Positions 48,742 through 49,234 of a DNA stretch of 64,000 nucleotides are shown here, piece after piece. Numbering within the stretch: the stretch's first letter is position 1; each line of letters starts with the position of its first letter. Below the pieces are notes generated by a model. It did no database searches and was not told where the DNA came from. It worked only from the letters and a program-made list of their open reading frames with translations. Source of the DNA: Patescibacteria group bacterium (GTDB lineage: Bacteria > Patescibacteriota > Dojkabacteria > J137); NCBI GenBank assembly GCA_963169855.1, contig CAUJCN010000002.1:267288-331287 (forward strand). The letters are read 5' to 3'. A program made the translations under genes and the position numbers.

Positions 48742-49234
48742 ATGAATAAAAAAATAATACCCTAATATTAATCATAGTTGTTGCCCTCGTTGTAATTGTT
48801 GTTGTCTCACAACCCCGCGATACCTTAGTACCACAAGATAACTCGGAAACTAACAGTCCGCAAAATGAAGACGCGGAATCGAATGAAACTGAAACTACTC
48901 CGATTGAAAACAATGACGTATCGGCTACTGGTTCATATATTCCGTATGCTCTGTCGTCTCTCACAAACGGAGTAAACGTTATTTTTTTGCAGCTAGTTGG
49001 TGTCCTTCTTGTTCAGAACTAGATAGAAATCTGAACGCATCTTTGAACTCCATTCCAGAAAACTTAACGATACTTAAAACAGATTACGATAACTCTCAAG
49101 AACTAAGAGAGAAATATGGCGTAACTATTCAACACACGCTTGTTCATGTAGATTCCGCTGGAAATCTTATAAAAAAGGTTACCGGACTTTATAACACTTA
49201 CACTCTTGAAGATATTATTACTCAGTTTAATTAA
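48742..49234 (+). pseudogene. thioredoxin-like protein (signal anchor + WCPSC active site) interrupted by two -1 frameshifts at homopolymers
   Basis: Three frame segments read:
- 'MNKK' (ATG 48742).
- Slip at the A7 run 48748-48754.
- 'NNTLILIIVVALVVIVVVSQ...SATGSYIPYALSSLTNGVNVIF'.
- Slip at the T7 run 48982-48988.
- 'FAASWCPSCSELDRNLNASLNSIPENLTILKTDYDNSQELREKYGVTIQHTLVHVDSAGNLIKK...' (= track ORF 49043..49234).

Adding one base at each run gives a continuous ~165-aa thioredoxin-fold protein. Confidence 0.6.

What the first reader, a model, noticed from the sequence alone, without database searches (positions are those of the whole stretch)
48742..49234. Thioredoxin gene upstream of ccdA is disrupted by two -1 frameshifts, both in 7-nt homopolymers
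Reading 'MNKK' from ATG 48742 and then inserting one base in the A7 run (48748-48754) and one in the T7 run (48982-48988) restores a complete signal-anchored thioredoxin with a 'WCPSC' active site. That protein ends in a TAATG overlap with ccdA. Both lesions are homopolymer-length changes, so the simplest explanation is homopolymer miscalls in the assembly. If so, other homopolymer-associated frameshifts may exist in this contig. The alternatives are a genuinely inactivated trx in an intact trx-ccdA operon, or slip-strand phase variation.
Basis: seen in the sequence. Interest (0 to 1): 0.55.

Follow-up and report, generated by a model that had tools for sequence, protein, structure and literature searches.

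The report
Recently broken thioredoxin gene beside ccdA
A membrane-anchored thioredoxin-like gene in front of ccdA in an uncultivated, small-genome bacterium carries two real one-base deletions, so it is an ordinary young pseudogene and not a sequencing artefact.

Summary
From ATG 48742, two one-base insertions restore a 164-aa signal-anchored thioredoxin-like protein (WCPSC). Its TAA overlaps the ccdA ATG at 49234.

The preferred interpretation, homopolymer miscalls, is not supported. Per-run Logan assemblies from seven sequencing runs, one from another project, match the window at 100% with no gaps over 33 kb. Three runs cover both lesion sites and a fourth covers the T7 run. No other split gene was found, and about 20 other runs of 7 nt or more lie inside intact ORFs.

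Every orthologue recovered is intact in the same IMPDH | trx-ccdA arrangement: a 95%-identical relative, a sister species in at least 9 assemblies, and a 49%-identical species. The second lesion is clearly T8 to T7. The first is probably not in the A7 run, because intact orthologues have the same in-frame ATGAAYAAAAAAATA; it lies somewhere in 48748-48763.

The window allele also carries Q136H at a position where 114 of 120 homologues have Q and none has H. dN/dS is still 0.04, so the inactivation is recent. There is no conserved frameshift, no stimulatory RNA structure and no allele variation between runs.

Verdict: a genuine recent pseudogene, of low interest.

The parts
48727..48735 (+). Extended -10-like element TGGTATGAT. 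The hexamer TATGAT (48730-48735) ends 6 nt before the ATG, so this is the likely promoter of a leaderless trx-ccdA transcript.
   Evidence: Conserved as TGGTATGAT, TGGTATCAT or TGATAGAAT at the same distance from the ATG in the window and in L005-L008 and L015-L022. Promoter function and the leaderless start are inferred, not shown.
48742..48765 (+). Remnant 5' reading frame: ATG AAT AAA AAA ATA ATA CCC TAA (MNKKIIP*). This is the ancestral start of trx.
   Evidence: The same ATGAAY AAA AAR start, read MNKK(I), occurs in all close intact orthologues.
48748..48754 (+). A7 run.
   Evidence: Nine intact orthologous genes carry the identical in-frame AAAAAAATA.
48755..48763 (+). Most probable interval of the first 1-nt deletion (ATAATACCC^TAATA, against L005 ATTGTTGCCATAATA).
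   Evidence: Alignment with L005, L006 and L007. The profile score slightly favours this placement. The exact base cannot be resolved.
48750..48988 (+). Middle segment of the pseudogene, in the second frame: hydrophobic membrane anchor, acidic Asn/Glu/Thr-rich linker, and the first beta-strand up to VNVIF.
   Evidence: profile positions 12-91, E 1e-8.
48982..48988 (+). T7 run and site of the second 1-nt deletion. The ancestral state is T8 (ATT TTT TTT, Ile-Phe-Phe).
   Evidence: T8 in L005; TTTTCTTT in L006 and L015-L024; TTTTCTTTT in L007; ATCTTTTTT in L008. All are in frame. Phe-Phe is invariant in 120 of 120 homologues.
48989..49234 (+). C-terminal segment of the pseudogene, in the third frame: thioredoxin-like domain with WCPSC (48998-49012), ending in TAA 49232-49234.
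   Evidence: E 2.8e-42.
49145..49147 (+). CAT codon (His) where the orthologues have CAA (Gln). This Q136H substitution is specific to the window lineage.
   Evidence: Q in 114 of 120 homologues, H in 0 of 120. L005 and L006 have Q.
49234..49956 (+). Intact ccdA: a 240-aa thiol-disulfide transporter of the DsbD transmembrane family. Its ATG overlaps the trx stop codon.
   Evidence: Pfam DsbD_TM matches full length at E 2.9e-5, 23.9 bits, below the cut-off of 27.1. The best solved-structure hit is Thermus CcdA 5VKV, E 6.4e-5, residues 8-224. 269 homologues have E <= 1e-40, many named CcdA. dN/dS against L005 is 0.07.
49957..49988 (.). GC-rich hairpin between the convergent ccdA and the 388-aa gene. 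It is terminator-like on the minus strand.
   Evidence: Its role for ccdA is inferred.

Best explanation
This is a genuine, evolutionarily recent pseudogene.

The ancestral state is a two-gene operon, probably transcribed as a leaderless mRNA. The first gene encodes a thioredoxin-like protein tethered outside the membrane by an N-terminal anchor. The second encodes CcdA, the membrane protein that passes reducing equivalents from cytoplasmic thioredoxin across the membrane to such partners.

In the lineage sampled by this window, trx has lost one base within its first eight codons and one base from a T8 run that encodes the invariant Ile-Phe-Phe just before the WCPSC active site. T8 arises because an AT-rich genome encodes Phe-Phe as TTTTTT, and such a run is prone to replication slippage.

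Translation from the ATG now stops after 7 codons, and neither downstream frame has a start codon, so no active thioredoxin-like protein is made. The ccdA gene is still intact but has lost its operon partner, and probably also the upstream translation that ended on its start codon.

Shown: the lesions, their reproducibility, the intact orthologues, and the signs of recent decay. Inferred: topology, electron flow, slippage as the mutational mechanism, and the polar effect on ccdA.
For: 1. Reproducibility.
- Logan assembles each accession separately and discards k-mers seen only once (PMC12424806).
- Its contigs from ERR10655377, 78, 79, 81, 82, 84 and SRR24928191 are 100% identical to the window, with no gaps, over 19652-52956.
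- Both lesion sites are covered in ERR10655384, ERR10655382 and ERR10655379. T7 is also covered in ERR10655377.

2. The rest of the window is clean.
- The 560-nt gap at 48674-49233 is the largest non-coding gap inside the window. The next largest, 466 nt, holds two tRNA genes.
- About 20 of the 27 runs of 7 nt or more lie inside intact long ORFs, including a 2499-codon ORF.
- If two random run-length errors fell among the 27 runs, the chance that both hit the two runs in this gene is 1 in 351.

3. Orthologues are intact in the same IMPDH(-) | trx(+) ccdA(+) synteny.
- L005, 95% aa identity.
- L006, L007 and L015-L022: nine independent assemblies, 162-166 aa.
- L008, 178 aa.
- 459 family members have E <= 0.001; the 120 listed are 112-279 aa and mostly 150-200.

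4. Signs of decay beyond the two deletions: Q136H, unique among 120 homologues.

5. Recency.
- dN/dS for the thioredoxin domain against L005 is 0.037 (2 non-synonymous and 14 synonymous differences).
- Only 5 codon changes are assignable to the window lineage.
- There is no stop codon in the repaired frame.

6. No intact version of this allele is on record. No other cluster in the 15-billion-protein collection reaches 90% identity apart from the L005 protein, and none of the 120 best family hits lies on the 817,811-nt contig that carries this ccdA.
Against: - I could not see reads or learn the sequencing platform of the ERR106553xx runs. Six of the seven runs come from one accession series, so a systematic platform error shared by those runs is not formally excluded. 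The one run from another project covers only 31921-38137, not the trx locus.
- The very low dN/dS means the sequence is statistically indistinguishable from a gene still under selection. That is also what an artefact or a rescued gene would show.
- The ccdA gene shows no relaxation (10 synonymous and 2 non-synonymous changes on the window lineage).
- Only 64 kb of an approximately 818-kb contig could be searched for a replacement partner.
Confidence: 0.85

Rival explanations
1. Assembly or base-calling artefact. The true genome has an intact trx, and the two missing bases are homopolymer-length miscalls.
For: - One lesion is a T8-to-T7 change, the classic homopolymer error type.
- The repaired frame shows strong purifying selection (dN/dS 0.037).
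- The source contig is 817,811 nt. I take that length as a hint of a long-read assembly, though a very good short-read assembly could also give it. That is inference.
Against: - Seven per-run assemblies give the identical sequence with zero indels over 33 kb and 16 runs of 7 nt or more.
- No other broken gene appears in 64 kb despite 25 other long runs.
- The first lesion is probably outside the A7 run, since that run has the wild-type length.
- The window-specific Q136H substitution is not a homopolymer effect.
Confidence: 0.05
2. Slipped-strand phase variation. The T tract, and perhaps the A tract, switch trx on and off in the population, and the sampled state is 'off'.
For: - The lesion lies in a mononucleotide tract of a gene for a surface-exposed protein.
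- Small genomes of this kind often have reduced DNA repair (own knowledge, not tested here).
Against: - The same off/off allele is present in every run that covers the sites.
- No 'on' allele of this strain is in the protein collection.
- Two independent lesions are superfluous for a switch.
- The tract is interrupted (TTTTCTTT) or shorter in the intact orthologues, so it is not a conserved contingency tract.
- Contig ends in ERR10655379 (49000 and 49022) and ERR10655377 (48859) do not coincide with where a T7/T8 bubble would break a de Bruijn graph.
Confidence: 0.04
3. Recoding rescue. A low level of full-length protein is made by RNA-polymerase slippage or -1 ribosomal frameshifting at the A7 region and the T7 run. 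This is the way some frameshifted genes of AT-rich endosymbionts are partly rescued.
For: - Both corrections are in the -1 direction.
- In the incoming frame, U UUU UUG (48983-48989) resembles an X XXY YYZ slippery heptamer.
- Slippage rescue at poly(A/T) tracts is documented in Buchnera and Blochmannia (PMC5009743).
- The coding sequence is still well preserved.
Against: - Two sequential low-efficiency events would be needed.
- Efficient bacterial transcriptional slippage is described for runs of 9 A or T, not 7 (PMC5009743).
- No stable structure follows either site (z -0.07 and +1.12), and there is no Rfam element.
- In the ATG frame the A7 run is read AAA AAA A, so the P-site tRNA would have to re-pair on UAA.
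- None of the orthologues has a frameshift, so nothing is conserved or programmed.
Confidence: 0.04

Closest known systems
CcdA with an extracytoplasmic thioredoxin-like partner encoded in the same operon. Examples are Streptococcus pneumoniae etrx2-ccdA2 and ccdA1-etrx1-msrAB2 (PMC3914529), S. gordonii (PMC7034828), and Bacillus subtilis CcdA with ResA or StoA (own knowledge).
   Same: - A small CcdA-type membrane protein is encoded next to a thioredoxin-fold CxxC protein that is tethered outside the membrane.
- The expected electron flow is cytoplasmic thioredoxin to CcdA to the tethered thioredoxin-like protein to surface targets.
- The gene pair is conserved across related genomes.
   Different: - The partner here is anchored by an uncleaved N-terminal hydrophobic segment, not a lipobox.
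- It belongs to a divergent family in which His replaces the cis-Pro of thioredoxins.
- No msrAB or cytochrome-maturation gene is adjacent, so the targets are unknown.
- In this window the partner gene is inactivated.
Frameshift pseudogenes at homopolymer tracts in AT-rich reduced genomes, such as Buchnera and Blochmannia (PMC5009743, PMC3017870).
   Same: - A one-base loss in a poly(T) tract created by AT-rich codon usage.
- A small-genome, uncultivated bacterium.
- Other relics lie nearby, for example a PfkB C-terminal remnant at 34018-34258.
   Different: - The tract is only 7-8 nt, below the length at which transcriptional slippage rescue is documented.
- The frameshift is not conserved in relatives, unlike the anciently maintained frameshifts reported in Blochmannia.
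Phase-variable contingency genes with mononucleotide tracts (own knowledge: Neisseria, Campylobacter, Helicobacter, Mycoplasma).
   Same: A mononucleotide tract inside the coding region of a surface-exposed protein, with a length change that switches the frame.
   Different: - No tract-length variation among runs.
- The tract is not conserved among orthologues.
- A second, independent lesion is present.

Membership tests
Thioredoxin superfamily (Pfam PF00085 Thioredoxin) | Sequence match above the curated Pfam threshold | tested here: met
   The repaired protein scores 36.6 bits against a cut-off of 23.5, E 4.9e-9, residues 77-161.
Thioredoxin superfamily | CxxC active-site motif at the start of helix 1, preceded by Trp | tested here: met
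   WCPSC at 48998-49012. W, C, P and C are invariant in 120 of 120 homologues. It aligns with WCGPC of thioredoxins.
Thioredoxin superfamily | Conserved cis-proline loop opposite the active site (Ile75-Pro76-Thr77 in E. coli TrxA) | tested here: not met
   The family has Gln-His-Thr at the aligned position, with His in 120 of 120 homologues. It is therefore filed as a divergent thioredoxin-like family, not as a canonical thioredoxin.
Canonical thioredoxin TrxA (NCBIfam TIGR01068 equivalog) | Score above the equivalog cut-off | tested here: not met
   33.3 bits against a cut-off of 96.8.
CcdA / DsbD transmembrane family (neighbouring gene 49234-49956) | Full-length match to DsbD_TM or CcdA, with the two membrane-embedded Cys residues | tested here: met
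   - Pfam DsbD_TM covers profile positions 3-215 of 219, E 2.9e-5, but at 23.9 bits is below the cut-off of 27.1.
- The best solved-structure hit is Thermus CcdA 5VKV, E 6.4e-5, with APC aligned to SPC.
- 269 homologues have E <= 1e-40, many carrying PF02683 and named CcdA.
- The Cys residues lie in FAPCVF and FSSCSP.
Pseudogene (inactivated orthologue) | Frame disruption relative to intact orthologues in conserved synteny, with no alternative start that would give a functional product | tested here: met
Pseudogene (inactivated orthologue) | The lesions are real in the DNA, not assembly errors | tested here: met
   The sequence is identical in independent per-run assemblies: both sites in three runs, T7 in a fourth. 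Read-level confirmation was not possible.
Programmed -1 frameshift or transcriptional slippage site | Conservation of the frameshift in orthologues, plus a slippery site with a stimulatory element | tested here: not met
   All orthologues are in frame. No downstream structure beyond shuffled controls. No Rfam match.
Phase-variable contingency locus | Tract-length polymorphism between or within samples, and a conserved long tract | tested here: not met
   All runs carry the same allele. The tract is interrupted in the sister species. Minority alleles within samples are not testable without reads.

The most novel reading that the evidence does not exclude
The off/off allele is not dead. Low-level slippage by RNA polymerase or the ribosome on the T7 run and in the A-rich start region, or reversible tract-length switching in the population, would tune the amount of a surface thioredoxin-like protein in a bacterium of the candidate phyla radiation. 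That would be a first example of such regulation of an extracytoplasmic redox pathway in this group.
Probability: 0.05. Interest if true: 0.45.

Novelty: new member of a known kind. Interest (0 to 1): 0.15.

Why it matters
- For annotation: the assembly in this region can be trusted, so the gene should be labelled a pseudogene and should not be 'polished' back into frame.
- For biology: one strain of a small-genome, uncultivated bacterium has just lost the outer partner of its CcdA reducing pathway, while close relatives keep it. This is a snapshot of ongoing gene loss. It suggests the pathway is dispensable in that habitat, or that CcdA has another client.
- The case shows how AT-rich codon usage (Ile-Phe-Phe encoded as ATTTTTTTT) turns an invariant protein motif into a mutational hotspot.
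- None of this is surprising to a specialist.

Tried and rejected
- A scan of the JGI metagenome collection with CcdA found no relative.
- A full-text search for the run accession prefix found no paper, so the platform and habitat stay unknown.
- One contig look-up failed because I trimmed the wrong end of a minus-strand ORF. It was repeated correctly.
- Candidate split genes elsewhere (13542-14380, 43672-44027, 24982-25377 and others) gave no Pfam evidence of a domain split across frames. L27 and L21 are intact.
- I looked for a second thioredoxin-like gene in the window with the family profile over all six frames and found none.
- Folding downstream of both runs to test for frameshift stimulators gave nothing above shuffled controls. 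Rfam found only three tRNAs.
- I tried to place the first deletion by nucleotide parsimony and by profile score. Both were nearly tied. Only the orthologue comparison (A7 in frame in nine intact genes) tips it away from the A7 run.
- A Shine-Dalgarno test for translational coupling of ccdA was uninformative, because this genome hardly uses such motifs (7 of 46 genes).

Full report
**1. What is in the sequence.**
The window has 35.5% G+C and is densely coding. Between a minus-strand IMPDH-family gene (47519-48568; Pfam IMPDH E 6.7e-104) and a plus-strand 240-codon ORF at 49234-49956 lies the largest non-coding gap inside the window, 560 nt.

From ATG 48742 the sequence reads ATG AAT AAA AAA ATA ATA CCC TAA. 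A second frame is then open from 48750 to 49019, and a third from 48917 to the TAA at 49232-49234. The last A of that TAA is the first base of the downstream ATG. A7 lies at 48748-48754 and T7 at 48982-48988, as reported.

Inserting one base in each run gives a 164-aa protein. It has an N-terminal hydrophobic segment, an acidic linker, and a domain that passes the Pfam Thioredoxin threshold (36.6 bits against 23.5), with WCPSC at 48998-49012. A profile built from 120 homologues matches the second frame (profile positions 12-91, E 1e-8) and the third frame (74-168, E 2.8e-42) in consecutive order. It matches nothing else in the window. The disrupted gene is therefore real and not a chance reading.

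Neither downstream frame has an ATG, GTG or TTG that could give a CxxC-containing product.

**2. The neighbour is CcdA.**
- Pfam DsbD_TM matches over nearly its full length, though below the cut-off.
- The best solved-structure match is Thermus thermophilus CcdA (5VKV, E 6.4e-5, residues 8-224).
- 269 database proteins match at E <= 1e-40, many named CcdA.

**3. Artefact or real?**
Logan assembles each public sequencing run on its own and discards k-mers seen only once (PMC12424806). Its contigs from ERR10655377, 78, 79, 81, 82 and 84, and from SRR24928191 (a different accession series), are 100% identical to the window. Together they cover 19652-52956 without a single gap.

Both lesion sites are covered in three runs and the T7 site in a fourth. 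Sixteen runs of 7 nt or more fall in the cross-checked 33 kb.

In the whole window, about 20 of the 27 runs of 7 nt or more lie inside intact long ORFs, one of them 2499 codons long. No other gene is visibly split. Under the miscall hypothesis, the chance that two random errors among 27 runs both hit this one gene is 1 in 351.

I could not inspect reads or learn the platform. A systematic error shared by the ERR runs is therefore not formally excluded, but I rate it at about 5%.

**4. Orthologues.**
The same arrangement, IMPDH on the minus strand followed by trx overlapping ccdA on the plus strand, recurs with an intact trx in:
- L005, 95% protein identity, run SRR28867361.
- A sister species seen in nine independent assemblies: L006, L007, L015-L019, L021 and L022, at 162-166 aa.
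- L008, at 178 aa.

The wider family has 459 members at E <= 0.001. The 120 listed are 112-279 aa, mostly 150-200, and the named ones come from Dojkabacteria/WS6, Pacebacteria and Magasanikbacteria. The two species-representative genomes that carry the orthologues are instead labelled 'uncultured Candidatus Saccharibacteria'. The frameshifts are thus specific to the window's strain and are not a conserved feature.

**5. Where the two lesions are.**
- *Site 2 is unambiguous.* L005 has ATT TTT TTT (T8), the sister species ATT TTC TTT, and L008 ATC TTT TTT. The window has T7. The Phe-Phe is invariant in 120 of 120 homologues. The T8 tract is simply this motif written in AT-rich codons.
L005 starts ATG AAT AAA AAG ATT. 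All read M-N-K-K-I, as does the window's own first frame.
- Against L005, a gap in the A run and a gap at CCC^TAATA cost the same number of substitutions. The family profile gives 181.4 and 183.6 bits respectively.
- I conclude that the first deletion lies in 48748-48763, more probably downstream of the A7 run.

**6. Age and state of decay.**
- Between the window (repaired) and L005, the thioredoxin domain has 14 synonymous and 2 non-synonymous differences (dN/dS 0.037). For ccdA, dN/dS is 0.07.
- Polarised with L006, only 5 codon changes in the domain belong to the window lineage.
- One of them is Q136H (CAA to CAT, 49145-49147), at a position where 114 of 120 homologues have Q and none has H.
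- The repaired frame has no stop codon.
- This is the picture of a very recent inactivation: three lesions, two of them disabling, and no time yet for general drift.
- None of the 120 best family hits lies on the 817,811-nt contig that carries this ccdA. No intact copy of this allele exists in the 15-billion-protein collection.

**7. Rivals.**
- *Programmed or adventitious recoding.* Both corrections are -1, and U UUU UUG is heptamer-like. However, no structure follows either site (z -0.07 and +1.12), there is no Rfam hit, and no orthologue has a frameshift. Efficient bacterial RNA-polymerase slippage is described for runs of 9, not 7 (PMC5009743). Two events would have to succeed in series.
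- *Phase variation.* No tract-length differences appear among the runs, the tract is not conserved, and a second lesion is superfluous for a switch. Contig ends in two runs (48859; 49000 and 49022) do not sit where a T7/T8 graph bubble would break.

**8. How the intact system most likely works (inference from family knowledge).**
A conserved extended -10-like element (TGGTATGAT and variants) ends 6 nt before the ATG in every orthologue. This suggests a leaderless transcript.

The protein would be anchored with its thioredoxin-like domain outside the membrane. It would be kept reduced by CcdA, which takes electrons from cytoplasmic thioredoxin. This is the model proposed, with genetic and biochemical support, for the pneumococcal CcdA-Etrx pairs, including the bicistronic etrx2-ccdA2 operon (PMC3914529).

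In the window strain this outer partner is gone. The ccdA gene remains intact but has lost the upstream translation that ended on its start codon. Whether that lowers CcdA synthesis cannot be judged from Shine-Dalgarno motifs, because the genome hardly uses them.

**9. Comparison and novelty.**
The object is an ordinary frameshift pseudogene of a known protein superfamily in a known operon type. It does not qualify as canonical TrxA (TIGR01068 at 33 bits against 96.8).

The family lacks the cis-proline of thioredoxins, with an invariant His in its place. That is a feature of the family, not of this finding.

Interest is low.

Noticed in passing
window 24982-25377 and 25378-32877 (+); stop TGA at 25375-25377: A 131-codon ORF carrying an N-terminal membrane anchor ends in a TGA. 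A 2499-codon ORF with no signal sequence of its own follows directly, in the same frame. It looks like one giant surface-protein gene interrupted by an in-frame TGA: a nonsense mutation, a readthrough site, or two genuine genes. TGA is a normal stop here (16 of 55 genes). The arrangement is reproduced in Logan contigs from ERR10655381 and ERR10655378. No orthologues were compared.
   Followed up: partly
window 34018-34258 (-): A short ORF, called as 68 aa in Logan contigs, matches only the C-terminal end of PfkB-family sugar kinases (...DPTGAGDMWRSGF...). It lies between two unrelated genes and is probably a gene relic. That would be a second sign of ongoing gene loss.
   Followed up: partly
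window 48727-48741; same position in L005-L008 and L015-L022: An extended -10-like element (TGGTATGAT, TGGTATCAT or TGATAGAAT) ends exactly 6 nt before the trx ATG in all orthologues. This suggests a leaderless trx-ccdA mRNA.
   Followed up: partly
repaired protein residues 131-133 (window 49130-49138); family alignment A3: The whole family (120 of 120 homologues) has Gln-His-Thr where thioredoxins have the cis-Pro loop (Ile-Pro-Thr in E. coli TrxA). A DYD motif is also near-invariant (Y and the second D in at least 118 of 120, the first D in 110 of 120). An invariant His facing a CxxC could mean altered redox properties or metal binding. No structure was predicted.
   Followed up: partly
window 48255-48656 compared with 48719-49959, against L005: Nucleotide identity to L005 jumps from 82% on the IMPDH side (dS about 1.2) to 92% across trx-ccdA (dS 0.2-0.35). 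The boundary is in the intergenic region. This suggests recombination or exchange of the trx-ccdA segment between lineages.
   Followed up: partly
window 50003-51169 (-): A 388-aa secreted protein with no family match lies between ccdA and the ECF sigma-factor gene in the window. It is absent from the sister species, where about 400 nt separate ccdA from the sigma gene.
   Followed up: no
whole window: Shine-Dalgarno-like motifs are almost absent upstream of start codons (7 of 46 genes, even with a loose motif set). Translation initiation in this organism therefore relies on other signals.
   Followed up: no
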